Below, piece by piece: positions 1,554 through 58,442 of a stretch of DNA of 64,000 nt. The stretch lies in assembly GCA_965116075.1 (NCBI GenBank), contig OZ220467.1:2308849-2372848 (forward strand), read 5' to 3'. The notes beneath the pieces are model-generated. The model did no database searches and was not told where the DNA came from. It saw nothing but the letters and a program-made list of their open reading frames with translations. How positions within the stretch are numbered: the first letter of the stretch is position 1; each line of letters opens with the position of its first letter. Origin of the DNA: Thermodesulfobacteriota bacterium (GTDB lineage Bacteria; Desulfobacterota_D; UBA1144; Nemesobacterales; Nemesobacteraceae). A program made the position numbers and the translations under genes.

Positions 1554-4067
1554 ATGAAGCAAAATCACTTTACTCCCGAAGCCGCAAATTCCATAAAACA
1601 GGCAATAGAAGAAGTTAACGGAAATGAAGTCTTTTTCGTCGGGAAAATAAATGAAGACTCCCTAGTTTACGAGGTTCAGGTTCTGGCCCGGGGAAACCGG
1701 GTATCTGTTCCTGCCATCATAGATAAAGCAGGACCTGGAACCGTAGTCATTCATAACCACCCGTCGGGAAACATGGATCCTTCTTCTAAAGATGTCACGG
1801 CCGCCTCGATTTTCGGCAACAAAGGAACCGGTTTTTATATAGTGGACAACAAAGTAAAAGAAACATATGTCGTGGTTGAACCCTACGTCCCAGGAGAAAT
1901 CGTCAGGCTTGATGAAGAATCTGCAAAAGAGTACCTTTTGCCAAATGGTTCCGTAGCTGAAATTTTTGGAAAGAAATACGAATGTAGAGATGAGCAACTT
2001 AAAGTCCTATCATATGTGGTCGAAGCCTTTAACGATGAACGTCTCTCAATGATAGAGGCAGGTACGGGCACTGGAAAAACTTTTTCCTACCTAATCCCTT
2101 CTATCCTCTGGGCTATCAGTAATAAGCAAAGAGTATTAGTATCCACAAACACCATCAATCTACAGGAACAGTTAATAAACAAGGACTTACCTATTCTCCG
2201 AGATATCTTCCCAGAAAAATTCGATTATGGCCTCATCAAAGGGATGAGAAACTATTTCTGCATTCTTCGCGGTGAATCGGTAGAAGAGGGGCTGCTTGAT
2301 TTTATAGATCAAGGAGAAAAAGGATCAATAAAAGATGTTCTCAAATGGTCAAAGACCACTTCCTCTGGATCTATTTCCGATCTAAGTTTTACCCCCTCAA
2401 ACGAAGTATGGGACAGAGTGTCCGCTGAAAGCGAGAGTTGCCCAGCAAGCAAATGCCCGCATTATTCGGACTGTTTTTTCTACAGAGCAAGAAGAGAGAT
2501 TTCAAGAGCATCTGTTTTGGTTTCAAACCACCACATGCTTTTTTCTGATATAGCTATAAAGGGTGAATCCGGTACAGACTCTAGCTTTGGATTAATCCCC
2601 GCATACTCTAGGGTGGTGTTTGACGAGGCGCATAATATAGCCGAGGCCGCAACATCCCACTTCAGCCAGAAACTCACCCTCCACGCAACCTTAAAAAATC
2701 TCTCAAGAATTCGGGGCACAAAAAAAGCAGGTAGAGACAAAGGATTTGTATCCTACATCACCCATTTTGCAAATAAAGAAACCAGCTCTTCTGTTAGAGA
2801 AATTCTTACAAACTCAGCAACTGCCCTTGCAAAAAACGCAGAACAAGTAGAAGCAAGAAATGAAGAGGCCTTTGTCTCGCTTTACTCGCTAGGTTGCAAA
2901 CTCTCTGGTGAAACCCAGATAAGTTTGAGACTCACCGAAGATATTGAGAAGAACAAAGGGTGGGGTAGTGTGAAAAAGTATTTTTCATCTCTTGAGAAAT
3001 CCCTTTTTTCACTCGAAAACGAGATATCGCGACTACTTGACATTCTGGAGAGTTCACCAAAGAGAGATTCTTATATAAAACTCACCGCAGAACTCGCCGG
3101 AGCTGGGAAAAGATGTTCTTCTTCTCGGGAGATATTGACCAGGTTTTTCGGGGAAGCAGATGAAAATTACGTCAAGTGGTTCGAGGGAGCACAGCGTGGC
3201 AGAGTAGTTTTCTGCTCTATTAATCTTTCACCACTTGATGTGGCTCCAGAACTTGAGAAGAAACTCTACGCGAAAACAAAAACAGTTGTTATGACTTCCG
3301 CGTCGCTTGCAGTAAACAAGAATTTCGATTTTCAGAAAAAAAGCTTAGGTCTTTCGAGTAATAACAGATTCAGAGGAGTCCTAGTGGAATCTCCTTTTGA
3401 CTACAAGACTCAGTCCCTACTCACCGTGCCAATTGACATCCCTGATCCCAGAGAGAAGAACTATGAAAATCACCTAGCGAGCGTAATATCAGACGCTGTT
3501 TCCATAACTAATGGAAATGCTCTTGTCTTATTCACCTCATACGCATCGCTTAACAAGGTTTACGAAGAAACAGGCACATTACTTGCGAAAAGTGAAGGTT
3601 TTTCTACTACTCTCTTCAAGCAAGGAGAACTGCCGAGAAACCTGCTCTTAGAAAAATTCAAGACACTTGGTAATTCTGTTCTTTTCGCCACAGATAGTTT
3701 CTGGGAAGGTGTAGATATTCCTGGAGACTCACTCAAGTTGGTAATCATATGCAGATTGCCCTTCAAGGTTCCCACAGACCCAGTCACAGAGGCAAAAATT
3801 GAGTATATGAAAAATCGTGATATTGATTCTTTTCGCGAGTATTTTCTTCCTCACGCAGTGCTCAAATTCAAGCAGGGTTTCGGAAGATTGATACGCACAA
3901 AAACAGACAAGGGAGTGGTGATGGTTCTTGACAAGCGAATTGAGTCAAAAAACTACGGTAGATTTTTTCTAAACTCTGTTAGTGATAGCGATTTTTTCTC
4001 CGGTAGGACAGAAAAGGTACTAGAACGGATACGTCAATTTTTTCTCAATAACCGTACCATCAAATGA
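1554..4067 (+). CDS. dinG: RadC-like JAB/JAMM domain fused to a DinG/XPD-type Fe-S DNA helicase
   Basis: 837 aa. The N-terminal ~110 aa carry HNHPSGNMDPSSKD (HxHx7SxxD). The remainder has Walker A GTGTGKT, a DEAH box (FDEAHN), and a Cys cluster (FCIL..SCPASKCPHYSDC) typical of the XPD/DinG Fe-S domain. Confidence 0.85.
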   Translation: MKQNHFTPEAANSIKQAIEEVNGNEVFFVGKINEDSLVYEVQVLARGNRVSVPAIIDKAGPGTVVIHNHPSGNMDPSSKDVTAASIFGNKGTGFYIVDNKVKETYVVVEPYVPGEIVRLDEESAKEYLLPNGSVAEIFGKKYECRDEQLKVLSYVVEAFNDERLSMIEAGTGTGKTFSYLIPSILWAISNKQRVLVSTNTINLQEQLINKDLPILRDIFPEKFDYGLIKGMRNYFCILRGESVEEGLLDFIDQGEKGSIKDVLKWSKTTSSGSISDLSFTPSNEVWDRVSAESESCPASKCPHYSDCFFYRARREISRASVLVSNHHMLFSDIAIKGESGTDSSFGLIPAYSRVVFDEAHNIAEAATSHFSQKLTLHATLKNLSRIRGTKKAGRDKGFVSYITHFANKETSSSVREILTNSATALAKNAEQVEARNEEAFVSLYSLGCKLSGETQISLRLTEDIEKNKGWGSVKKYFSSLEKSLFSLENEISRLLDILESSPKRDSYIKLTAELAGAGKRCSSSREILTRFFGEADENYVKWFEGAQRGRVVFCSINLSPLDVAPELEKKLYAKTKTVVMTSASLAVNKNFDFQKKSLGLSSNNRFRGVLVESPFDYKTQSLLTVPIDIPDPREKNYENHLASVISDAVSITNGNALVLFTSYASLNKVYEETGTLLAKSEGFSTTLFKQGELPRNLLLEKFKTLGNSVLFATDSFWEGVDIPGDSLKLVIICRLPFKVPTDPVTEAKIEYMKNRDIDSFREYFLPHAVLKFKQGFGRLIRTKTDKGVVMVLDKRIESKNYGRFFLNSVSDSDFFSGRTEKVLERIRQFFLNNRTIK

Positions 4068-4077
4068 AATCTTTTCG

Positions 4078-4470
4078 ATGAACTTAGAAAAAAACAATGA
4101 GAAACAATCCACAGAAAAACGGTTGGAAAAAACACTTGCAAAACTCAGAAATTCAAATTTCCGCTCGGGTTTCAGACTGAATTCAAAAGAACAGAATTAT
4201 CTTAGGGAAAAGGGACTTTCTGTCATTCTTCGCCACGGAAAAGATTTCATCGAAAAAAGACTTGCCCCCGCCGTTCCGCCAAACGATGGAAAGCAAACCC
4301 CTTGGGGAGGCCACCCAGTGTTTCGGGCACAGCACGCAACTGCTACATGTTGCCGAAGTTGTCTTTTAAAGTGGCATGGGATATCGAAGAACAAAAGACT
4401 AAACGCAGAAGAAAGAAATTATGTTGTCAACTTGATTAGATTGTGGCTGAGCCGGGGCGGACGACTTTAA
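4078..4470 (+). CDS. DUF4186-like small protein
   Basis: 130 aa. The signature NDGKQTPWGGHPVFRAQHATATCCRSCLLKWHGI matches my recollection of the DUF4186 family. It starts 10 nt after the dinG stop. Confidence 0.65.
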   Translation: MNLEKNNEKQSTEKRLEKTLAKLRNSNFRSGFRLNSKEQNYLREKGLSVILRHGKDFIEKRLAPAVPPNDGKQTPWGGHPVFRAQHATATCCRSCLLKWHGISKNKRLNAEERNYVVNLIRLWLSRGGRL

Positions 4471-4772
4471 TATCAATTTGATTGCAATCGGCAACTACCG
4501 TAGTTCAATCAGGAGGAATTTAAAAACAGGAAGTTGATACAACACATAAAACAAAATATGGAAAAATAGAGTGCTTTGAATAAGTGTCACTAATCTTTGC
4601 TACCAAAATAGGTTTTGTCGACAACAAATTTTAAGATGTTCGACGCATGGATAGTTATCCAATATGATAGGTGTAAGTACTGAGAATTTGATTGAAACTT
4701 GAAAGAATTCAACTAGGATAACATGAATTGAATCGCTCCGAATTTTGATGGGCACTATTCTTCAATAGGCGT

Positions 4773-7685: not shown

Positions 7686-8858
7686 TTAGTTGTCTTGGAA
7701 AATGTAGGTTCGTGTTTTGGTATTAAATGTTGTACTTATAAACCTAGTCAGGGTCGCTTTATTGGTTACGATCTCTGCCGCTTTTGCCTGGTTTGCCGAC
7801 CCATTGACTTCTATAGTAACATAATTGACACCATTGACTTTAATAATACCCGCCGCGCTAGTTAGTGCTCTAGCGTTATCTCCTGCTGAGAAACCTCTGA
7901 AGTAGATTTTATCTTCTGCTGTATTGAAGTCCTTTATAACCTTAATACCTGGGTTAGCGTTATAGCTAATAAGAAAAGTATCAGCTCCAGCCCCTCCGGT
8001 AAGAGTATCAGCTCCAGTAAATCCCCAAAGAGTGTCATCGCCTTCTCCTCCGACTAGGGTGTCATCGCCGCTCCCTCCGTTAACAACATCAGCTCCAGCC
8101 CCGCCGTTTTGGGTGTCATCCCCTTCATCTCCAAAGAGGAAGTTGTCTTTGTCGTTTCCGGTAAGAGTGTCATCGCCTTTGCCGCAAAGAACAGTCTCAA
8201 TACCTTCAAATGTAAACGTCCCAGTGCCTGATAAAGAAGACCCATCATAAGTCCCCTTAGAAAGATCAATAGTTATATTATCGGTAATCTGATCGGAGTC
8301 AGTACGATTATAGGTACCGGTGACCGTACTAATAAGATCATCGCTTGCCTCTCTACGGCAATATATGATATCGTTACCATCACCGCCAAGCCATTTATTA
8401 GCGCCTGCTTGTTCCCAAATATAAAAGTGATCGCCCCCCCCTTCGCCGTACATTGTATCATCACCAGCTCCCCCTATCATTTTGTCATCGCCCCCGCCAG
8501 CGTAAACAATATCATCTCCGGCTTTAGCTCTAATCTCATTATTATTCCGATTTCCACAAATAACATCGGCATCATCGGTTCCGTTGATATTGTCGTCAGC
8601 AATACCTAATACACCATTTATTCCATTGCTAACATCACATCTTGAATCACCAAAAGGTTTTCCATCAGCTCCGGCGCTTCCATCGGCACCAGCATCCCCT
8701 TTATCGCCTTTGTTCCCTTTATCGCCTTTGTCGCCTTTATCACCTTTCGCCCCGTCCTTTCCCGCCGGCCCTGCTGGGCCTCTCTCCCCCTCACAAGCCA
8801 CGAAAAAAACTGCTCCAGTGAGCAGTAACAACATCACTAATAAATTGTGTAACTTCAT
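7686..8858 (-). CDS. Lipoprotein-signal / collagen-like (GXY) / RTX calcium-binding repeat protein, paralog 1
   Basis: The ATG at 8858 is preceded by AGGAGG. Signal MKLHNLLVMLLLLTGAVFFVAC (lipobox-like VAC). GXY run GERGPAGPAGKDGAKGDKGDKGDKGNKGDKGDAGADGSAGADG. RTX nonapeptides (GGAGDDTMYG, GGSGDDTLVGGEGDDTLWG, GGAGADTF). Confidence 0.85.
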   Translation of the reverse strand: MKLHNLLVMLLLLTGAVFFVACEGERGPAGPAGKDGAKGDKGDKGDKGNKGDKGDAGADGSAGADGKPFGDSRCDVSNGINGVLGIADDNINGTDDADVICGNRNNNEIRAKAGDDIVYAGGGDDKMIGGAGDDTMYGEGGGDHFYIWEQAGANKWLGGDGNDIIYCRREASDDLISTVTGTYNRTDSDQITDNITIDLSKGTYDGSSLSGTGTFTFEGIETVLCGKGDDTLTGNDKDNFLFGDEGDDTQNGGAGADVVNGGSGDDTLVGGEGDDTLWGFTGADTLTGGAGADTFLISYNANPGIKVIKDFNTAEDKIYFRGFSAGDNARALTSAAGIIKVNGVNYVTIEVNGSANQAKAAEIVTNKATLTRFISTTFNTKTRTYIFQDN

Positions 8859-8952
8859 AATACAACCTCCTGTATAAGTTGTTCCATTTATAAATGGACA
8901 TTTATCTGGCAAACCCTTGTTATAAAACCTTCATTCTTAAGTCAGTCTTTTG

Positions 8953-8982
8953 AGTTTACCCCCCCCCCCCTCACAAAGTCAA
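8953..8982 (-). promoter_or_regulatory. Putative sigma70-type promoter with G12 tract in the 18-nt spacer (paralog 1)
   Basis: Minus strand: TTGACT (8982-8977), ttgtga plus G12 (run at 8959-8970), TAAACT (8958-8953). Confidence 0.55.
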
Positions 8983-8997
8983 GGACTAGCGAGAAAC

Positions 8998-9367
8998 GAG
9001 GCATTTGCGCTGTAGTGATGCTTGATGCTGATTTCTTTTGATGATTGTGGAACCGCTACGGATTTATTTCTTTTGTAAATGATAAATTTGTTATTAACTT
9101 GAGGTAGTTACGCTACAACGACTTTGATGCTTTTTCCTTGAAGATAACCAAAATAACATTGACTTACTCTTATAAAAGAGGAGACGATTCTGCTAGCAAA
9201 TTAAATTTCAACCTATGAAGACACCTTTATAGTGACATTAAAAACAAATTAGATCATTGAGTTATTTGTATTTTTGGGGAACTTTTACAGGGGTTATATC
9301 AACCGATTTTAGTGTGGGGTGAAATTTGTGGATTTTGGCTTATATTAGCCGATTTTAGGACTTTTTT
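8998..9367 (-). mobile_element. MITE family 2, copy D (truncated, 370 of ~466 bp)
   Basis: Starts with the terminus GAGGCATTTGCGCTGT (8998-9013). It is collinear with the reverse complement of copies A and B, and is cut off at 9367 by the IS66-like end. Confidence 0.8.
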
Positions 9368-9390
9368 GTAAGCGTTCGTTCAAGGGGTGT

Positions 9391-10280
9391 TTATAGGGGG
9401 TTTGAGCGATTGAGGATTTGTCTCCAATTCCTGTGAAGCGGTCGTAGCCAAATGTCCTTTTTGGGTTTATCGCATCGTTTGTAACGATCGTAGCGACCAC
9501 GCCCCTGTGTAGTTCCAACGCGTGTCCATCCAGATGCCCGGTATACGGTGCCTGTATATGTCGGAATTTGTACAAACGTCTCAATAAGCACAGGCGTGAA
9601 GTTGTATCGTTGCTTCCACTCGTTGGGCAAGCGGCGACAGACTACCGAGAGTATGTGTGACCCAAGATTGGGTATCTGTATCCATGGAAGAATCAGGAAT
9701 CTGGGGTTGTCGATAACCAGCGGTAAATTCTTTTCACGTTGCTCGGATGTCCATCCTATGAAGGTATCACGCGGCGCAAGTTTCCATGCGGCGGTGGAGA
9801 AGCCTAGCATGGCCAGCGGCGAACCGTGGCGGTCGCGCACTGCGTAGCGCATCTGAGCCCCGACTAATGTCTTATACCCTAAGTAGTGATAACGCGCTAC
9901 AAACTCGTTCCATAGTTTGCCTTGCTTGGTGCCACTGACAACGGTGTGAACCTGCAGTGGACGGACTTCTTCAAGGGTCTTAGTAACCGGTAGCTTATGT
10001 GGTTCGGTGTCTGCTCCGAAGACAATAGGCTTGGCTCGGGGCGACACGCAGGTGGTGGCAACTTGATGATGCCATCCCTATGCATGGCTAGCATGGTGAG
10101 TCTGGCCGTCATATCCTTGAGTCCGCCATCGGGCTTGTACCACCCAATACGTCTGCAAAACTCTCTGGACAGAGCAGTCCGGTTGAGCCGCTCGGACCCG
10201 GCTATCAAAGCGCGTAGCAGTTTCATCTCCGCAGCCGTGAACTCTCGCCCGTAGTAGCGGCACTCAACCTTGTTGGTCAT
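9391..10280 (-). pseudogene. DUF4338-like gene, frameshifted (copy I)
   Basis: ORFs 9897..10280 and 9391..10047 together match the intact 297-aa copy at 31789-32682. A 2-nt deletion relative to copy II lies near 10045-10052. Confidence 0.75.
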
Positions 10281-12369: not shown

Positions 12370-13623
12370 TTAAAAAACATTCCATGGTATTGGGAAAGAA
12401 TAGGAATCTAAAGCATTGTAATCCCAAAGTTTATATCTTTTTTCACTAATAATTTTTTCTGCTAGTTCTTGGTCAAGTTCTCCATTTGTCTCTATCCGTA
12501 AAATCTTCATGTTTTCTATATAAATCCTACCGTCTTTAGCTTTTAACTTTCCGAATGGACGCCCTCCACCCACCCCTCTAATTATATATATTGGTTTTTT
12601 ATAAGTGTCGTAGTAGCAAGTATTGTCAGTTATGCCAACCTCGGCGTGTTCTCTGCATGACGGGCTATATGCGTAGCTTACTTCCCTCTGATTATTGGGG
12701 AAAAAATTGATTACATTGTTTCGGTCAGTACGATGCGCTATTAAAAGCAAGAAGTCTTCTTCTAACTGAAAATTGCGAATAGTATCTACTTGTTTATTTT
12801 CGTCTTCTTTAGGTCTCCATTGCGCATCGTGAACAAAAGTATCCGCGCCCTGACCACTAGCGAGAGTGTCTCTACCATATCCACCTATAAGCCAATCGTC
12901 TCCAGGTCCTCCTCTGAGTATATCATCCCCCTGTCCCCCTCTGAGTATATCATCCCCCTGTCCCCCAAACAGAGAATCATTTCCATATCCACCGATAAGA
13001 ACATCGTCACCTTTTCTCCCGTAGATTCTGTCATTGCCATAAGTAGAGTAGGAATTAATACGAGACCATTCACGCTGAAAGGCGACTTTTGAAGAAGTAC
13101 CCCCATCCCCATAAAGTAGATTGTTCTCTTTCGTTCCGTAGATAATATCATTTCCACCGCCCCCGAGCACTGCGATAACATCTTTTAAGGGTCTATATTG
13201 GTTAGAGTAAATATCAAGCGGGGATTCAGAAACATCTACATCAGCAACACAGATAAAATCTCTACCGGTTGTCCCAAAGATTGTATAAATATTCCCATAT
13301 CCATGCCCCGGCCTCCAGCGATGGCTGGCGCTGTAAATGCCTTGATGCTGCGAGATGCCCTTGGGGCGGTAGTTAAAATGATCCATAGCTAAAAAGACAT
13401 CAGTTCTCACCAAAGACTTAGCATCCCAGCTCAAGTCAGATGAGGACTGAATATCATCGCACCGCGAATCTTCACTAGTCGCCCTTGGCTCTTCTTCACC
13501 CCCCACCGGAATCTCATCATCTCCACTTTTTGCATCAATCGTATCTGGTGGAGTTTCCTCCGCCTGCGCCGGCGCGCCCCAGAGTAAAAACAGAATTGAA
13601 AAAACTGCTATAGCTAGTCTCAT
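12370..13623 (-). CDS. Secreted RTX-type calcium-binding repeat protein (second architecture)
   Basis: The ATG at 13623 is preceded by GGGAGGA. Sec signal MRLAIAVFSILFLLWGAPAQA. Repeats GGYGNDSLFGGQGDDILRGGQGDDILRGGPGDDWLIGGYGRDTL. Confidence 0.8.
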   Translation of the reverse strand: MRLAIAVFSILFLLWGAPAQAEETPPDTIDAKSGDDEIPVGGEEEPRATSEDSRCDDIQSSSDLSWDAKSLVRTDVFLAMDHFNYRPKGISQHQGIYSASHRWRPGHGYGNIYTIFGTTGRDFICVADVDVSESPLDIYSNQYRPLKDVIAVLGGGGNDIIYGTKENNLLYGDGGTSSKVAFQREWSRINSYSTYGNDRIYGRKGDDVLIGGYGNDSLFGGQGDDILRGGQGDDILRGGPGDDWLIGGYGRDTLASGQGADTFVHDAQWRPKEDENKQVDTIRNFQLEEDFLLLIAHRTDRNNVINFFPNNQREVSYAYSPSCREHAEVGITDNTCYYDTYKKPIYIIRGVGGGRPFGKLKAKDGRIYIENMKILRIETNGELDQELAEKIISEKRYKLWDYNALDSYSFPIPWNVF

Positions 13624-13904
13624 AATAGTTCCTCCCATTATTTAAGTATCAATGCCACGCCTGCCCGTGTAGTTAGTGTTCACCAGAAAACCCCCTTTTT
13701 TGGAGATATTAGACTGCTATTTTGCCTGATCCGAGCGTCAAACGGAAGTTGACTTAAGATTTTTTTGTGGATTTTGTGCGTATCAAGCAGTTATTTTCTA
13801 CTTTTGAGACCAATTTTAAGGGCCATAATCACCATTAGCGCATAGGTCACCGTTCCCGCTTAGTGTGGGTTAAAAAATTGGTGTTTTTTGGGAGAATGAA
13901 GTCG

Positions 13905-25916: not shown

Positions 25917-27894
25917 GTGTTCGGTGTAGTGACTGCTCTTCGTATGACTGAAACGCTCTTTGATGACAGAACATCAGCAAGTATTGTTGAAACTTCGCCT
26001 GATGCCAAATGGCTGGAAATCGAACTCTTTGGAGAAGCTTTGCGAACCGGTCTTGGCGAAAGTGACTTTGAATTTCAGTGCGGCGTGGTTACATATCCAC
26101 TTCTAGGCCAGGGTATCTTCGTTGCAAGCGTCACCGAACTCGCACACATCTATAACAAGCCTGATAAAGCCAGCAGCATCCATGTCGGTACACTCTCTCA
26201 GGCATCGTCACTGCCTGTGTACTTGCTGGCAGATGAACTGCTTGGAAAACACTTTGCCGTCCTTGGCACAACTGGATCAGGTAAGTCATGTTCCGTAACT
26301 GTACTACTACGTGCTATTCTTGAAGTCGCGCCAAAAGCACACATGATCTTACTTGACCCACACAACGAATACCGTCAAGCATTCAAGGACAAAGCCGAAA
26401 TCATTGACCCAACAACTCTTGAACCGCCACATTGGCTCCTGAATTTCGAGGAAAGTACTGAATTGTTCATTGGTAGGACAGAATACGCTGCGACGAGCCA
26501 GAGCAACATCCTGAAAGACGCCATGCTCGCCGCACGGCAAGATTTCGTTCATTCCAACAAGGTTATGAGCGAAGAAAAGGTTACGGTAGACACACCAGTT
26601 CCATACCAACTAAGAGGCATTTGCGCTGTCCAACAAATGTATGCATATCAAGGGTTTTTAGAAGGGGTAAAAAACTTTTCACCCCAGAAATCCCCCCAAA
26701 AAGCCCCAAAAAAGCCCTGAAATCGGCTAATGTAAGTCAAAACCCAGAAATTTCACCCCACACTAAAATCGGTTGATATAACCTCTGTAAAAATTCTCCC
26801 AAAAACAAATAACTTGATGATATTATTTATTTTTAATGTCACTATAAAGGTGTCTTCATAGGTTGAAATTATAATTTGCTAGCAGAATCTTCTCCTCTGC
26901 TATAAGAGCAAGTCAATGTTGTTTCTGCTCATCCTCAAAGAAAAAGCCTCAAAAATCGTCGTAGTGTAACTACCTCAAGTTAATAACAAATTTATCATCT
27001 ACAAAAGAAATAAACCCGTAGTGGTTCTATCATCATCGAAAGAAATCAGCATCAAGAATCGCTACAGCGCAAATGCCTCAACTAAGCAAACTTATTGAGA
27101 ACATCAATGCCAACAAACCAAAGCAGGAATCAAAACAAGCCCCTTACCTCAAGATAGAGAATAAAATTCAAACGTTGCAACAGGACAGCCGCTTTTCTTT
27201 TTTGATCCGTCCAGACAAGGATGTAAAAGATAATCTGGAAAAAATTGTCGGGCAGTATCTGCACATACCAGTCCAAGAAAAGCCGCTTTCGATCATTGAT
27301 CTTTCAGGTGTTCCCTCGGATGTTGTGAATGTTGTCGTATCGGTATTGTGCCGTATGATTTTTGATTTCGCGATTTGGGTACCACGCCCTGTCCAAGTTC
27401 CGATTGTTTTGGTTTGCGAAGAAGCACACCGATATGCGCCGCGGCGCGATGACGCCGCCTTTCAGCCAACTAGGCAAGCACTCTCTCGCATTGCGAAGGA
27501 AGGTCGGAAATATGGTGTTGGCCTTGGGCTGATTTCCCAACGCCCCTCTGAACTAGCAGAATCGGTCCTCTCGCAGTGCAATACTCTCATCGCGTTGAGG
27601 ATGAGCAACGAACAGGATCAGAATTTTGTACAGCGCGCCTTGCCTGACTCAGTTCACAGCATTGCCAGCGTGTTGTCAACTCTGCGGACACAAGAAGCTT
27701 TGGTGGTCGGTGAAGGATCGGTCGTACCAGTTCGGTTACGCTTTATTGACCTCCCAAAGTCAAACCAGCCTCAAAGTGCCGATGTGCCATTTACAAGCCT
27801 CTGGAAAAATGAGGAGACGGATCTTAAGTATGTCAAAGACGTGGTGGTGCGCTGGCGTCTTCAAAAGCGTCCACCGATAACCGCGGAAAACTAA
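25917..27894 (+). pseudogene. HerA-like (DUF87) ATPase gene, split by MITE-2 and apparently 5'-truncated
   Basis: ORFs 25917..26720 (Walker A GTTGSGKS) and 27073..27894 (VLVCEEAHRYAP, EGRKYGVGLGLISQRPSE). They join in frame when 26614-27079 and one AACTAA copy are removed. Confidence 0.75.
26614..27079 (+). mobile_element. MITE family 2, copy A (466 bp)
   Basis: Perfect 16-bp terminal inverted repeats GAGGCATTTGCGCTGT / ACAGCGCAAATGCCTC. 6-bp duplication AACTAA (26608-26613 and 27080-27085). Confidence 0.9.
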
Positions 27895-28005: not shown

Positions 28006-29241
28006 TTAGTTGTCTGTAAAAGTAGCGGTTCTTGTTTTCCCAATTTCTAGATCTATAAACCTATATTTTGTTGAATCGTCTTTTATTTTCGTAGCTTTGT
28101 CGTTGTCTACTGTCCCGGCATCATTATGTATTATAACAATTTCCGTTCCGCCAACTGAAATCTTACCGGCAACAACAGTTATTCGTCTAGCGGTATCGCC
28201 TGTTGGGAACTTCCAAAAATAGAGTTTATCCTCTGTCAAATCAAAGTCTTTTATCGTATAAACCCCATTATCTTTACGAACAACGAAAATGTCAGCGCCT
28301 GCTCCACCAGTATAAACGTGAGTGGTTCCAGAAGCCCCGCCTGAGTAAAGAACATCATTGCCGTCACCACCGTTTAGAGTATCATTACCGCGCAGGAAAC
28401 CGCCCCAAAGAAGATCATCACCCCCGAGGCCGTTAATAATATCGGTTCCATGCCCCCCGAAAATGTAGTTGTCTTCATCGGTCCCGGTAAGAGTATCATT
28501 ACCACTCCCGCTAAGAATGTCCTCAATACCTTCAAATGTAGCCGACCCAGTCGACCCAGCATTCCCTGAAATTGAAGAAGCATCAAACGTCCCAGAAGAA
28601 AGATTAAGAGTTATAGCAGCAGTACCAAGGACACCAGACCAATATATATCTTTGCCGTCCAGTGCCGTATTATCAGGAACGGGGTGAGCCCAATAAATCA
28701 TATCCCTCCCAGGACCACCAATCAATTTGTCCCCTGATTGTTCTAGAAGAAAAAAGTGGTCCTTTCCTGCGCCTCCGTTGAGCGTATCATCACCATCACC
28801 ACCGTCAAGCCTATCATCACCATCACCACCGTTGAGTTCATCATTGCCAGCTTTCCCTTTGAGATAATCGTTTCCACCGGCACCGTAAACCGTATCATCC
28901 CCGCCCTCAGCTGCAATTATGTTTGCAACACGAGTTCCACAAATAACATCGTCATCATCTGTGCCGGTTAGGTTGTTCTGATTAATACCGACTATCCCCT
29001 GTATCCCATTGCTAACATCGCACCGAGAATCACCATATGCAGGCCCTTGGTCGCCAGCTCTGCCATCCGCCCCCGCGGGGCCTAGCGTGCCGTCCTTCCC
29101 TGGGTCGCCTTTATCGCCTTTCGCTCCGTCCTTCCCTGCTGGACCCGCCGGCCCTGCTGGTCCTCTCTCGCCCTCACAAGCCACAAACAAAACTGCTCCA
29201 GTGAGTAGCAACAACATCACTAATAAACTACGTAACTTCAT
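28006..29241 (-). CDS. Lipoprotein-signal / collagen-like / RTX repeat protein, paralog 2
   Basis: MKLRSLLVMLLLLTGAVLFVAC, GERGPAGPAGPAGKDGAKGDKGDPGKDGTLGPAGADGRAGDQG, and RTX repeats (GGDGDDRLDGGDGDDTLNGGAGKD, GGDGNDVLYSGG, GGAGADIF). Confidence 0.85.
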   Translation of the reverse strand: MKLRSLLVMLLLLTGAVLFVACEGERGPAGPAGPAGKDGAKGDKGDPGKDGTLGPAGADGRAGDQGPAYGDSRCDVSNGIQGIVGINQNNLTGTDDDDVICGTRVANIIAAEGGDDTVYGAGGNDYLKGKAGNDELNGGDGDDRLDGGDGDDTLNGGAGKDHFFLLEQSGDKLIGGPGRDMIYWAHPVPDNTALDGKDIYWSGVLGTAAITLNLSSGTFDASSISGNAGSTGSATFEGIEDILSGSGNDTLTGTDEDNYIFGGHGTDIINGLGGDDLLWGGFLRGNDTLNGGDGNDVLYSGGASGTTHVYTGGAGADIFVVRKDNGVYTIKDFDLTEDKLYFWKFPTGDTARRITVVAGKISVGGTEIVIIHNDAGTVDNDKATKIKDDSTKYRFIDLEIGKTRTATFTDN

Positions 29242-29331: not shown

Positions 29332-29364
29332 AGTTTACCCCCCCCCCCCCCCCTACAAAGTCAA
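29332..29364 (-). promoter_or_regulatory. Putative promoter with G16 tract giving a 21-nt spacer (paralog 2)
   Basis: Minus strand: TTGACT (29364-29359), ttgta plus G16 (run at 29338-29353), TAAACT (29337-29332). Confidence 0.55.
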
Positions 29365-36641: not shown

Positions 36642-36712
36642 TCCAGTATAGAGTTATAACATCCTTAAGAAAAAACCTGCTGTGTATTTTCTAAACAGCC
36701 TAACAGTTTATT

Positions 36713-37178
36713 GAGGCATTTGCGCTGTCCAAAAAATGTATGAATATCAAGGGTTTTTAGAAGGGGTAAAAAACTTTTTACCCCAGAAATCCCCCCAAAA
36801 TACCCCAAAAAAGTCCTAAAATCGGCTAATGTAAGTCAAAACCCAGAAATTTCACCCCACACTAAAATCGGTTGATATAACTTCTGTAAAAATTCTCCCA
36901 AAAACAAATAACTTGATGATATTATTTATTTTTAATGCCACTATAAAGGTGTCTTCATAGGTTGAAATTATAATTTGCTAGCAAAACCTTCTTCTCTCCT
37001 ATAAGAGCAAGTCAAAGTTGTTTCTGGTCATCCTCAAGAAAAAAGCCCCAAAAATCGTTGTAGTGTAACTACCTCAAATTAATAACAAAGTTATCATCTA
37101 CAAAAGAAATAAACCCGTAGCAGTTCCACAATCATCAAAAGAAATCAGCATTAAGAATCACTACAGCGCAAATGCCTC
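36713..37178 (+). mobile_element. MITE family 2, copy B (466 bp)
   Basis: Perfect 16-bp termini. 6-bp duplication TTTATT (36707-36712 and 37179-37184). Intergenic. Confidence 0.9.
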
Positions 37179-37383
37179 TTTATTGTAACTAACAACCCGT
37201 CCAAAATTAAAGCGCTGTTTAATAGGCGGTAAATAAAAGATGGTTGGGTCTGTAGAAAAAGCAGAAAACAACTGAAACCCTTTTTCTTCCAGAAGTAGTT
37301 TTGGCGACCACATGCTTTGAGATGCAGAAAAGACGGACTTTGAATAGTTAGGAACACGAAAAACAACTTCCATTAATTCTGGC

Positions 37384-56346: not shown

Positions 56347-56376
56347 TTGACTTTGTAAGGGGGGGGGGGGTAAACT
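56347..56376 (+). promoter_or_regulatory. Putative promoter with G12 tract in the 18-nt spacer (paralog 3)
   Basis: TTGACT (56347-56352), ttgtaa plus G12 (56359-56370), TAAACT (56371-56376). The ATG lies 95 nt downstream. Confidence 0.55.
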
Positions 56377-56470: not shown

Positions 56471-57652
56471 ATGAAGTTGCGTAACTTATTAGTGATGTTG
56501 TTACTGCTCACTGGAGCAGTTTTGTTTGTAGCTTGTGAGGGCGAAAGAGGTCCAGCGGGTCCAACAGGGCCAGTAGGTCCAGCGGGTCCAGCAGGGAAGG
56601 ACGGAGTAGACGGAAAGGACGGCGCACAAGGGCCAGCGGGGGCAGCAGGCGCGAAAGGCGATGACCTAACCGAAGGTGATCCTAGATGCGACCGCAGTAA
56701 CGGAATAGATGTACCCGTAGGAATACGACTCATTTATGGTACAGGCGATGATGATGTTATTTGCGCAAATCGCCTAGATAACCAGATTAGAGCCGGTGAG
56801 GGCGATGATACGGTTTACGGTGGGGATGGAGCTGACAAAATGATAGGTGGCGATGGCGATGATACGCTTTACGGTGAAGATGGCGCTGATGATTTTTTTA
56901 TTTGGCAACAAAAAGGCGCTAATACATATATTGGTGGGAATGGGAAAGACATGATCTATTTTTGGAGAGATAATCCGAGTGCAACAAGAATAAAAACGGG
57001 CGTTAGTGCTGGTATATATACTGAGCAGAGTGATGGTTCTGACGCCCCTAACAGCGATATAACCTTTGATCTTTCTTCTGGGAGTTTTAATGCTACTTTT
57101 TCGACTACGTCTGGCTCGTATACATTTGAGAGCATTGAGGCTGTTAGAGGTGGCGATGGGGATGACACTATCACTGGAGACGACAAAGACAACTTCATCC
57201 ATGGAGGTTACGGAGACGACACCATAAACGGCGGGGGTGGCGATGATATGCTTCGCGGGGGGGCCGGGGATGACATAATAAACGGCGACGACGGGGACGA
57301 CTTGTTTTACGCATACAATAGGACCACGGATACGCTTACCGGCGGAGCTGGGGCAGACACTTTTGTTTTTGAGAATTGGAATACGCCAGGAGTCCACGTG
57401 ATAAAGGACTTCAACTTGGATGAAGATATAATCTATCTCAACGGTTATCCCTCGGGTGATTCAGCGCGGGATATAACTAATTCAGGCGCTAACCTATTAG
57501 CGGGTACAACTACTTTTGCGCTGATTGAAAAGGGTGGCGCCAACAGCTCCACTCACGCCAAAGCGATAGCAGACAAGACAAGCGCCGTTAAGTTTGTAGA
57601 TAATCCGCAACTTGATCCGGAAACGAGAACTTGGTCTTTTGATGACGATTAA
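56471..57652 (+). CDS. Lipoprotein-signal / collagen-like / RTX repeat protein, paralog 3
   Basis: The ATG at 56471 is preceded by GGGAGG. MKLRNLLVMLLLLTGAVLFVAC, GERGPAGPTGPVGPAGPAGKDGVDGKDGAQGPAGAAGAKG, and RTX repeats (GGDGDDTLYGEDGADDF, GGGGDDMLRGGAGDDIINGDDGDD, GGAGADTF). Confidence 0.85.
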   Translation: MKLRNLLVMLLLLTGAVLFVACEGERGPAGPTGPVGPAGPAGKDGVDGKDGAQGPAGAAGAKGDDLTEGDPRCDRSNGIDVPVGIRLIYGTGDDDVICANRLDNQIRAGEGDDTVYGGDGADKMIGGDGDDTLYGEDGADDFFIWQQKGANTYIGGNGKDMIYFWRDNPSATRIKTGVSAGIYTEQSDGSDAPNSDITFDLSSGSFNATFSTTSGSYTFESIEAVRGGDGDDTITGDDKDNFIHGGYGDDTINGGGGDDMLRGGAGDDIINGDDGDDLFYAYNRTTDTLTGGAGADTFVFENWNTPGVHVIKDFNLDEDIIYLNGYPSGDSARDITNSGANLLAGTTTFALIEKGGANSSTHAKAIADKTSAVKFVDNPQLDPETRTWSFDDD

Positions 57653-58032: not shown

Positions 58033-58442
58033 AAAAACTTTTCACCCCAGAAATACCCTCAAAATACCCCAAAAAAGCCCTAAAATCGGCTAATGTAAGT
58101 CAAAACCCAGAAATTTCACCCCACACTAAAATTGGTTGATATAACCTCTGTAAAAATTCTCCCAAAAACAAATAACTTGATGATATTATTTATTTTTAAT
58201 GCCACTATAAAGGTGTCTTCATAGGTTGAAATTATAATTTGCTAGCAAAACCTTCTTCTCTCCTATAAGAGCAAGTCAATGTTGTTTCTGGTCATCCTCA
58301 AGAAAAAAGCCCCAAAAATCGTTGTAGTGTAACTACCTCAAATTAATAACAAAGTTATCATCTACAAAAGAAATAAACCCATAGCAGTTCCACAATCATC
58401 AAAAGAAATCAGCATTAAGAATCACTACAGCGCAAATGCCTC
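58033..58442 (+). mobile_element. MITE family 2, copy C (lacks the left ~60 bp and left terminus)
   Basis: Collinear with copies A and B from AAAAAACTTTTCACCCCAGAAAT.. to the terminus ACAGCGCAAATGCCTC ending at 58442. Confidence 0.8.

What the first reader, a model, noticed from the sequence alone, without database searches (positions are those of the whole stretch)
8953..8982. Poly-G tract forms the -35/-10 spacer of the paralog 1 promoter (predicted slipped-strand phase or amplitude switch)
**Seen.**
- The minus strand reads TTGACT (8982-8977), then ttgtga, then G12 (8970-8959), then TAAACT (8958-8953). This lies 95 nt upstream of the ATG at 8858.
- The same architecture recurs at the two paralogous loci.
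- The tract is G12 here (18-nt spacer), G16 at 29338-29353 (21-nt spacer) and G12 at 56359-56370 (18-nt spacer).
- Flanking bases are otherwise nearly identical, so the tract is the main variable position.

**Established.**
- Homopolymers of 10 nt or more are hypermutable by slipped-strand mispairing.
- When such tracts sit between promoter hexamers they switch or tune transcription. Examples are Neisseria opc and porA, and Haemophilus hif.

**Inference.**
- The three surface-protein genes would be independently phase-variable at the level of transcription.
Basis: partly seen in the sequence, partly recalled or inferred. Interest (0 to 1): 0.75.

Follow-up and report, generated by a model that had tools for sequence, protein, structure and literature searches.

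The report
Poly-G promoter spacers, lipoprotein gene family
Each gene of a large family of predicted surface lipoproteins in an uncultured Dadabacteria-like bacterium has a run of G's between its two promoter boxes, an arrangement pathogens use to switch surface proteins on and off at random, but actual switching was not seen here.

Summary
The three tracts (G12, G16, G12) lie exactly where stated, between TTGACT and TAAACT, and they are the only homopolymers of 9 nt or more in the 64-kb window.

Comparison supports the promoter reading. Across 11 promoters from two or three related species, only TTGAC, the G run and the T1/A2/A4/T6 positions of the -10 box are invariant.

The three genes belong to a family of at least 36 paralogs on one 2.39-Mb chromosome. 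The proteins combine a lipoprotein signal, collagen triplets and RTX repeats. A conserved 5' cassette (about -130 to +80) heads otherwise diverged genes, much as in Mycoplasma hyorhinis vlp.

Tract length differs among paralogs:
- 12, 13, 14 and 16 in this species.
- 7 and 9 in the sister species.

Length is strongly modal, with G12 in 5 of 6 intact promoters and G9 in 4 of 5. It was identical in all three same-locus comparisons between assemblies. Slippage-driven switching is therefore plausible but not shown.

Three side observations:
- An ISAs1 element sits inside the tract in two paralogs.
- A coding G8/G9 difference frameshifts paralog 1 in a sister strain.
- A G12 tract lies inside a DNA methylase gene.

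The mechanism is known. The organism and the family are new.

The parts
8977..8982 (-). -35-like hexamer TTGACT of paralog 1
   Evidence: TTGAC is invariant in 11 family promoters.
8959..8970 (-). G12 tract of paralog 1. With ttgtga (8971-8976) it makes an 18-nt spacer.
   Evidence: The sister strain ERZ24894574 also has G12 here.
8953..8958 (-). -10-like hexamer TAAACT of paralog 1
   Evidence: T1, A2, A4 and T6 are invariant across the family.
8859..8952 (-). Conserved untranslated stretch between the -10 box and the ATG of paralog 1. It holds the perfect palindrome TCCATTTATAAATGGA (8898-8883) and a GGAGG Shine-Dalgarno site.
   Evidence: No Rfam match. The fold is no more stable than shuffles, z = 0.06.
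7686..8858 (-). Paralog 1 coding sequence of 390 aa: lipoprotein signal peptide (LTGAVFFVAC), collagen GXY triplets and RTX repeats. It contains a coding G8 run at 8434-8441.
   Evidence: The run is G9 in the sister strain and frameshifts the gene there.
29332..29364 (-). Paralog 2 promoter: TTGACT (29364-29359), ttgta, G16 (29353-29338), TAAACT (29337-29332). The spacer is 21 nt.
28006..29241 (-). Paralog 2 coding sequence, 411 aa, same domain layout
   Evidence: This is P0041.
56347..56376 (+). Paralog 3 promoter: TTGACT, ttgtaa, G12 (56359-56370), TAAACT. The spacer is 18 nt.
56471..57652 (+). Paralog 3 coding sequence, 393 aa, same domain layout. It contains a coding G7 run at 57257-57263.
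   Evidence: This is P0035.

Best explanation
**What it is**
- Each G tract is the variable part of the spacer of a sigma-70-type promoter with the layout TTGACW, N5-7, Gn, TAnAnT.
- That promoter heads a conserved 5' cassette made of the promoter, a leader of about 95 nt with a GGAGG ribosome-binding site, a lipoprotein signal peptide and the first collagen triplets.
- The cassette is shared by at least 36 paralogous genes for collagen-like/RTX lipoproteins. The host is an uncultured bacterium related to Candidatus Dadabacteria, in Thermodesulfobacteriota.

**How it most likely works**
- The tract sets the distance between the hexamers: 18 nt for G12 and 21 nt for G16.
- Gain or loss of G's by slipped-strand mispairing should therefore raise, lower or abolish transcription of one paralog at a time.
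- On spacing alone, paralogs 1 and 3 are predicted to be on at a sub-optimal level and paralog 2 off.

**Shown versus inferred**
- Shown: the anatomy, its conservation, the size of the family, and length differences among paralogs.
- Inferred: the transcription start site, the effect of length on transcription, and a high switching rate.
For: - **Comparative footprint.** Over 11 promoters from two or three species, TTGAC and T1/A2/A4/T6 of the -10 box are invariant, while most flanking positions carry roughly 0.2-1.0 bit.
- **Edge of conservation.** Family-specific conservation begins just 5' of the -35 box. Further upstream the sequence is unrelated, or is the end of a dispersed repeat.
- **Conserved cassette.** The region from about -130 to +80 is 82-91% identical among six paralogs, whereas the rest of the genes is mostly about 45-70% identical. 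The proteins are about 50% identical.
- **Family size.** 36 clusters map to the 2,386,527-bp contig and about 23 to the 1.98-Mb sister genome. One cluster holds three near-identical copies on the same contig.
- **Lengths vary among paralogs.** Values are 12, 12, 12, 12, 12 and 16 in intact promoters of this species. They are 14, 10|12 and 13|13 where an insertion sequence has uncoupled the promoter from its gene. They are 7, 9, 9, 9 and 9 in the sister lineage.
- **Distribution typical of contingency loci.** In 190 kb, every G/C run of 9 nt or more is at a family promoter, in the paralog 1 coding region of the sister strain, or inside a C5 DNA methylase gene.
- **G-run slippage occurs.** The only indel in 9.6 kb between the window and a 99.85% identical strain is G8 versus G9 inside paralog 1.
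- **Not an assembly artefact.** Lengths are identical in independent assemblies.
- **Known precedents.** Tract length in the -35/-10 spacer controls T. pallidum tp0126 and N. meningitidis porA (PMC7864442). A poly-A tract controls the M. hyorhinis vlp genes (PMC10502178).
Against: - No length difference was seen at any single promoter locus in three comparisons between assemblies: paralog 1, P0050 and P0062.
- Lengths are modal, not scattered, with G12 in 5 of 6 intact promoters and G9 in 4 of 5. This fits a constrained feature or one homogenised by gene conversion.
- In the sister lineage the spacers are 15 and 13 nt. Either nearly all those genes are off or weak, or the 17-nt rule does not apply.
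- TAAACT matches TATAAT at only 4 of 6 positions, and the whole site scores 9 of 12.
- The transcription start site is unmapped.
- A full-length MutS gene is present (L127 95-2680), so mismatch repair is probably intact.
Confidence: 0.6

Rival explanations
1. The tract is a real promoter spacer but a static one. It has a fixed, selected length, is inherited with the 5' cassette and is homogenised by gene conversion. Differences among paralogs are slow evolutionary changes or decay, not a physiological switch.
For: - G12 occurs in 5 of 6 intact promoters of this species and G9 in 4 of 5 of the sister lineage.
- Lengths are identical at the same locus in separate assemblies.
- The cassette is 82-91% identical among paralogs, consistent with concerted evolution.
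- MutS is present.
Against: - Runs of 12-16 G are intrinsically unstable in all bacteria studied (general knowledge).
- The T. pallidum tprL tract also shows one dominant length, 9 G, yet varies within isolates (PMC7864442). A stable consensus therefore does not exclude switching.
- Tracts uncoupled from their gene by an insertion sequence mostly differ from 12. The values are 14, 10, 13 and 13.
- A G8/G9 change separates two 99.85% identical strains.
- Nothing else explains why a 9-16 nt G run should be kept in a spacer.
Confidence: 0.25
2. The G run is not a passive spacer. It could be a recognition or structural element, such as a binding site for a family-specific regulator, an A-form or G-quadruplex-prone segment, or part of the transcript with the start site upstream. 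In that case the set-point length (12 versus 9) would matter, not 17-nt spacing.
For: - The modal lengths are species-specific and give spacers of 18 and 15 nt, neither of them the optimum.
- The G's are always on the sense strand.
- The G at -14 is always present, as in a partial extended -10 motif (inference from the sequence).
Against: - Conservation of TTGAC and TAnAnT immediately flanking the tract is exactly what a -35/-10 pair predicts.
- In several paralogs the sequence 5' of the -35 box is unrelated, so no shared upstream promoter exists.
- There is no Rfam match and no unusual leader structure.
- G12 is too short for a standard three-tetrad intramolecular quadruplex.
Confidence: 0.1
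3. The tract lengths are sequencing or assembly artefacts of homopolymers.
For: Long G runs are error-prone on all platforms. One sister-species assembly has only 2-3x coverage.
Against: The same lengths were recovered in independent assemblies: G12 in the window and in ERZ24894574, and G9 in ERZ25068685 (83x) and ERZ26693861. The tracts also recur at homologous positions in more than 15 promoters.
Confidence: 0.03

Closest known systems
Mycoplasma hyorhinis vlp variable lipoprotein genes (poly-A tract in the promoter; Citti and Wise 1995, as summarised in PMC10502178)
   Same: - Multigene family of lipoproteins.
- Each gene has its own promoter carrying a homopolymer.
- Promoter, leader and signal peptide are highly conserved while the mature parts diverge.
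- Each gene is predicted to switch independently.
   Different: - The tract is poly-G, not poly-A.
- The proteins are unrelated (collagen plus RTX here).
- The family is far larger (at least 36 genes, against the handful of vlp genes as I recall) and dispersed around the chromosome, not clustered.
- The host is a diderm Thermodesulfobacteriota/Dadabacteria lineage.
- Switching is not demonstrated here.
Treponema pallidum tp0126 and the tprE/G/J/L promoters (poly-G; PMC7864442)
   Same: - A poly-G tract lies in the promoters of paralogous predicted outer-surface protein genes.
- In tp0126 the tract sits between the -35 and -10 boxes, and 17-nt spacing is optimal.
- One length dominates, with minority variants.
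   Different: - The T. pallidum tracts are 7-11 G and were shown to vary in vivo and to alter reporter output.
- In the tpr genes the start site is only a few nucleotides downstream of the tract, so the geometry differs.
- Here the tracts are 12-16 G and untested.
Neisseria meningitidis porA (poly-G spacer) and opc (poly-C), and Haemophilus influenzae hif (TA repeats)
   Same: A repeat tract inside the core promoter sets hexamer spacing and so the level of expression of a surface protein. porA and opc are described in PMC7864442.
   Different: Those are single loci, not a genome-wide paralog family with a shared cassette. The opc tract overlaps the -35 box. The hif repeat is a dinucleotide (from memory, not checked here).

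Membership tests
Promoter-spacer homopolymer phase-variable (contingency) loci | A homopolymer of about 8 nt or more lies between recognisable -35 and -10 hexamers | tested here: met
   The hexamers are invariant over 11 promoters while the flanks vary.
Promoter-spacer homopolymer phase-variable (contingency) loci | Tract length is heterogeneous at one locus, within or between closely related populations | tested here: inconclusive
   Three same-locus comparisons of consensus assemblies show no difference. Lengths differ among paralogs (7-16). No reads were available.
Promoter-spacer homopolymer phase-variable (contingency) loci | The transcription start site lies downstream of the tract, and tract length changes transcript level | not testable with these tools
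   This needs 5' RACE or dRNA-seq and reporter fusions.
Promoter-spacer homopolymer phase-variable (contingency) loci | The controlled gene encodes a surface or host-interaction product | tested here: met
   The sequence shows a signal peptide ending in a lipobox (FVAC), followed by collagen triplets and RTX repeats. Surface exposure is inferred.
Vlp-type variable lipoprotein families (Mycoplasma) | The 5' region (promoter, leader and signal peptide) is conserved across paralogs whose mature regions diverge | tested here: met
   The region from -130 to +80 is 82-91% identical, against mostly about 45-70% for the rest of the genes.
Vlp-type variable lipoprotein families (Mycoplasma) | Sequence homology to Vlp proteins | tested here: not met
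   Pfam finds only Collagen and HemolysinCabind. All close homologues are from the same lineage. The resemblance is an analogy only.
RTX proteins exported by type I secretion | Tandem GGxGxD calcium-binding nonapeptide repeats | tested here: met
   PF00353 matches at E = 1e-21 to 4e-25 in all three paralogs.
RTX proteins exported by type I secretion | A C-terminal uncleaved secretion signal and no N-terminal signal peptide | tested here: not met
   All members start with a lipoprotein-type signal peptide. A C-terminal signal was not assessed.

The most novel reading that the evidence does not exclude
The lineage runs a genome-wide contingency system. About 40 dispersed lipoprotein genes are each gated by their own poly-G promoter. 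The set-point length is species-specific (G12 versus G9) and does not follow the 17-nt rule, which would imply a dedicated factor or a non-B DNA structure that reads the tract. An ISAs1 element that inserts specifically into the tracts would act as a second, coarser off switch. A poly-G-controlled DNA methylase would add an epigenetic layer. Together this would be the first stochastic surface-variation system described in Dadabacteria/Thermodesulfobacteriota, possibly in an animal-associated symbiont.
Probability: 0.15. Interest if true: 0.75.

Novelty: new member of a known kind. Interest (0 to 1): 0.55.

Why it matters
Homopolymer promoter switches are documented almost entirely in host-adapted pathogens such as Neisseria, Haemophilus, Treponema, Mycoplasma, Helicobacter and Campylobacter.

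Finding the same design on every member of a family of about 40 genes in a small (2.0-2.4 Mb), IS-rich genome of an uncultured Dadabacteria-like lineage would have two implications:
- The organism faces strong, fluctuating selection on its surface, from a host immune system or phagocytes, from phage or from grazers.
- Stochastic surface variation is more widespread than the pathogen literature suggests.

The finding also gives three concrete loci where existing long-read data could measure switching directly. No paper in the searched library links Dadabacteria to phase variation.

Tried and rejected
- **Exact-protein look-ups of window genes.** Look-ups of the three paralogs and of two neighbouring window genes found nothing. 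The window's own genome cannot be retrieved, so the orthologous sites of paralogs 2 and 3 in the sister strain could not be compared.
- **Metagenome scan.** A scan with the 15-mer GCTAGTCCTTGACTT returned only chance matches. None was followed by a G run.
- **Genome scan.** The scan with the protein alignment returned one locus only, because the peptide patterns it used were strict.
- **Leader RNA element.** There is no Rfam match and the fold is no more stable than shuffles (z = 0.06). This reading was rejected.
- **Second promoter inside the leader (CTGACT-N15-TATAAC).** Its hexamers are not conserved among paralogs (sequences). This reading was rejected.
- **Alternative sigma-factor motifs (sigma-32, sigma-54, sigma-28).** These were compared from memory and do not fit.
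- **Fourth RTX gene at 12370-13638.** It has an ordinary signal peptide, no cassette and no tract, so it is not part of the system.
- **Host or habitat.** The literature gave only circumstantial hints that Dadabacteria MAGs occur in sponge HiFi metagenomes. Host association is not established.

Full report
**1. The observation**

The sequence is as described.

| Paralog | Strand | -35 TTGACT | Non-G spacer | G tract | -10 TAAACT | Spacer |
|---|---|---|---|---|---|---|
| 1 | minus | 8982-8977 | ttgtga | G12, 8970-8959 | 8958-8953 | 18 nt |
| 2 | minus | 29364-29359 | ttgta | G16, 29353-29338 | 29337-29332 | 21 nt |
| 3 | plus | 56347-56352 | ttgtaa | G12, 56359-56370 | 56371-56376 | 18 nt |

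- The ATG of paralog 1 is at 8858.
- These are the only homopolymers of 9 nt or more in the 64-kb window, which has 44% G+C. The next longest G/C runs are C8 and G7.
- The consensus scan lists the paralog 1 site as a 9-of-12 match with an 18-nt spacer.
- The three sites are paralogous copies, so the window alone cannot show that the arrangement is maintained by selection.

**2. The genes**

- All three genes encode proteins of 390-411 aa. Each has three parts:
  - a signal peptide ending in a lipobox (MKL..LLVMLLLLTGAV.FVAC);
  - about 14 collagen GXY triplets (PF01391);
  - RTX calcium-binding repeats (PF00353, E = 1e-21 to 4e-25).
- The proteins are only about 50% identical to each other.
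- The DNA from about -130 to +80 relative to the ATG is 82-91% identical among six paralogs. The rest of the genes is mostly about 45-70% identical.
- The genes therefore share a conserved 5' cassette of promoter, leader, signal peptide and first collagen triplets.

**3. Size of the family and the organism**

- A homology search found 36 clusters (at 90% identity) of this architecture on one 2,386,527-bp contig. That contig is the window's own genome, because paralogs 2 and 3 appear as P0041 and P0035.
- About 23 further clusters lie on a 1,980,752-bp circular chromosome, and more lie on contigs of the ENA assembly ERZ24894574. One cluster alone holds three copies on the 2.39-Mb contig.
- The only species-representative genome with a hit is OZ242002.1, titled Thermodesulfobacteriota bacterium MAG.
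- The window's transketolase is 88% identical to that genome's, and 78-79% identical to proteins named Candidatus Dadabacteria.
- The window also carries ordinary chromosomal genes, including transketolase, UvrC and a radical-SAM/TRAM enzyme, along with many IS66, IS1634 and other transposases.

**4. Comparative test of the promoter reading**

I recovered the upstream DNA of family members from three sources:
- a sister strain, ERZ24894574, which is 99.85% identical over the shared locus;
- a sister species, in ERZ25068685/OZ242002.1 and ERZ26693861;
- a further contig of ERZ26693861.

Results:
- In the sister species the leader and upstream sequences are not alignable with the window. The layout still persists. 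Examples are TTGACT-tcataa-G7-TAGAAT, TTGACT-taccac-G9-TAGAAT, TTGACT-tagtaa-G9-TAGAAT, TTGACA-catgta-G9-TAGAAT and TTGACT-taaata-G9-TAGAAT.
- Over 11 promoters, TTGAC carries 2.0 bits at each position. T1, A2, A4 and T6 of the downstream hexamer are invariant, and most flanking positions carry roughly 0.2-1.0 bit. These are the positions that matter most in sigma-70 -35 and -10 boxes (general knowledge).
- Family-specific conservation starts just 5' of the -35 box. In P0037 and P0026 the upstream sequence is unrelated.
- In paralogs 1-3 the block TACAGCGCAAATGCCTC just 5' of the -35 box is the end of a repeat of about 0.4 kb. The same repeat also occurs at window positions 26.7, 36.8 and 58.1 kb, next to unrelated sequence.
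- No Rfam family matches the region, and the leader does not fold better than shuffled sequence.

I regard the statement that the tract is the -35/-10 spacer as well supported, although the transcription start site is unmapped.

**5. Is the tract variable?**

Among paralogs, yes.

| Group | Tract lengths |
|---|---|
| Intact promoters, this species | 12, 12, 12, 12, 12, 16 (spacers 18, 18, 18, 18, 19, 21) |
| Promoter cut off by IS66 copies in the leader (P0039) | 14 |
| ISAs1 inserted in the tract (two paralogs) | G10-IS-G12 and G13-IS-G13 |
| Sister lineage | 7, 9, 9, 9, 9 (spacers 13 and 15) |

At a single promoter locus, no.
- Paralog 1 is G12 in both the window and the sister strain.
- P0050 and P0062 are G9 in two separate assemblies. 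Those two assemblies are nearly the same strain (99.98-99.99% identical), so that test is weak.

Other relevant points:
- The lengths are strikingly modal and species-specific. This argues for constraint on length and hence for a function of spacing. It does not show independent random on/off states at consensus level.
- Published T. pallidum data show that one dominant length can coexist with minority variants that matter (PMC7864442). Only reads can settle the question.
- Tracts released from their gene by an insertion sequence mostly depart from 12. This fits slippage under relaxed selection. However, the numbers are small (one-sided Fisher p about 0.07, my calculation), and target-site duplication confounds the ISAs1 cases.

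**6. Other signs of G-run instability and contingency behaviour**

- The only indel in 9.6 kb between the window and the sister strain is G8 (8434-8441) versus G9 inside paralog 1. It breaks the reading frame in the sister strain.
- Several family members in the database are truncated (P0042, P0044, P0069). P0042 ends just after a glycine run.
- In 190 kb of DNA from this lineage, every G/C run of 9 nt or more falls in one of three places:
  - a family promoter;
  - the paralog 1 coding run;
  - a G12 run, in frame (MGGGGD), inside a C5 DNA methyltransferase gene. That gene lies near a vsr gene and overlaps a 241-aa ORF of unknown function.
- A homopolymer inside a restriction-modification methylase gene is a classic contingency locus (general knowledge).
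- A full-length MutS gene is present.

**7. Mechanism and rivals**

Most likely mechanism, confidence about 0.6:
- The promoter is of sigma-70 type, and its hexamer spacing is set by the tract.
- G12 gives 18 nt, which is functional but sub-optimal. G11 would give 17 nt, the optimum. G16 gives 21 nt, which should be off.
- Slippage would retune each paralog independently.

Main rival, about 0.25:
- The geometry is the same, but the tract is effectively static and is homogenised along with the cassette.

Smaller possibility, about 0.1:
- The tract is itself read by a factor or adopts a special structure.
- The 15-nt modal spacer of the sister species suggests this, because a 15-nt spacer is hard to reconcile with an active standard promoter.

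Artefact is unlikely, because independent assemblies agree.

**8. Comparison with known systems**

- The design matches promoter-spacer homopolymer switches such as N. meningitidis porA and T. pallidum tp0126 (PMC7864442).
- At the family level it matches the M. hyorhinis vlp genes (PMC10502178). Those have a homopolymer in each promoter, and (from memory of the original vlp work) a conserved 5' region and lipoprotein products.
- The resemblance is analogy, not homology, because the proteins are collagen-like/RTX lipoproteins.
- These proteins also differ from classical RTX exoproteins in having an N-terminal lipoprotein signal.
- No paper in the searched library links Dadabacteria with phase variation.

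**9. Verdict**

- The promoter-spacer anatomy is supported by comparative evidence.
- Phase variation is a reasonable inference with precedent, but it is unproven. The strongly modal lengths and the unchanged lengths across assemblies weaken it somewhat.
- The mechanism is a known kind. The lineage, the protein family, its size and the targeting by an insertion sequence are new.
- Interest is 0.55.

Noticed in passing
window 8434-8441 (minus strand, inside paralog 1); L002 10021-10029: A coding G8 run (GEGGGD) is G9 in a 99.85% identical strain. This is the only indel in 9.6 kb, and it frameshifts the gene there into fragments of 58, 31 and 258 aa. It may be a second, translational phase switch or a pseudogenisation.
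   Followed up: partly
L003 7446-9888 and L126 13865-16307: The same 2443-bp ISAs1-family element sits inside the poly-G tract of two different paralog promoters, as G10-IS-G12 and G13-IS-G13. It splits the -35 box from the -10 box. Both copies seen are in tracts, which suggests targeting to poly-G.
   Followed up: partly
L127 4451-4462 (gene 3667-4602, minus strand): A G12 run lies in frame (MGGGGD) inside a C5 DNA methyltransferase ORF, between motif I and the PCQ motif. A vsr gene lies nearby, beyond an IS1595 transposase gene, and the methylase overlaps a 241-aa ORF of unknown function. This is a candidate phase-variable restriction-modification methylase.
   Followed up: partly
L126 4808-4821 and 4901-9974: A family promoter with G14 is separated from its gene (P0039, at 10001) by about 5 kb of IS66 copies inserted in the leader just before the ribosome-binding site.
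   Followed up: partly
window 8883-8898, and the same position in the other paralogs: The perfect 16-bp palindrome TCCATTTATAAATGGA lies in the leader about 25 nt upstream of the ATG. It is kept, with only 1-2 substitutions in some paralogs, throughout this species and is absent from the sister species. It may be an operator for a shared regulator.
   Followed up: no
window 8998-9368, 26614-27080, 36712-37181, 58054-58442: A dispersed repeat of about 0.4 kb (89-94% identical) ends in TACAGCGCAAATGCCTC. In paralog 1 it abuts the promoter about 15 nt 5' of the -35 box. Elsewhere it is followed by unrelated sequence. It is probably a non-autonomous mobile element.
   Followed up: partly
L001 2891-2897; L124 9907-9915; L128 9896-9904; L130 311-319 and 10277-10285: The sister lineage has a modal tract of G9 (15-nt spacer) and one G7 (13-nt spacer), against G12 (18-nt spacer) in the window's species. 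Neither species sits at the 17-nt optimum. This is unexplained.
   Followed up: partly
L002 2089-3618, against the window between about 14844 and 15005: The sister strain carries an extra IS66 copy that is absent from the window. Together with the many IS66, IS1634, ISAs1 and IS1595 genes, this points to ongoing transposition in a small genome.
   Followed up: no
window 12370-13638 (minus strand): A fourth RTX-repeat protein of 422 aa has an ordinary signal peptide, no collagen region, no cassette and no G tract.
   Followed up: partly
window 9391-10047; L003 7677-9461; L126 7106-7999: ORFs matching the Pfam DruA (Druantia) domain PF14236 recur in or beside IS66 and ISAs1 copies, and in the ISAs1 transposases the domain is fused to the transposase. 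These hits look like transposase-associated domains, not defence genes.
   Followed up: no
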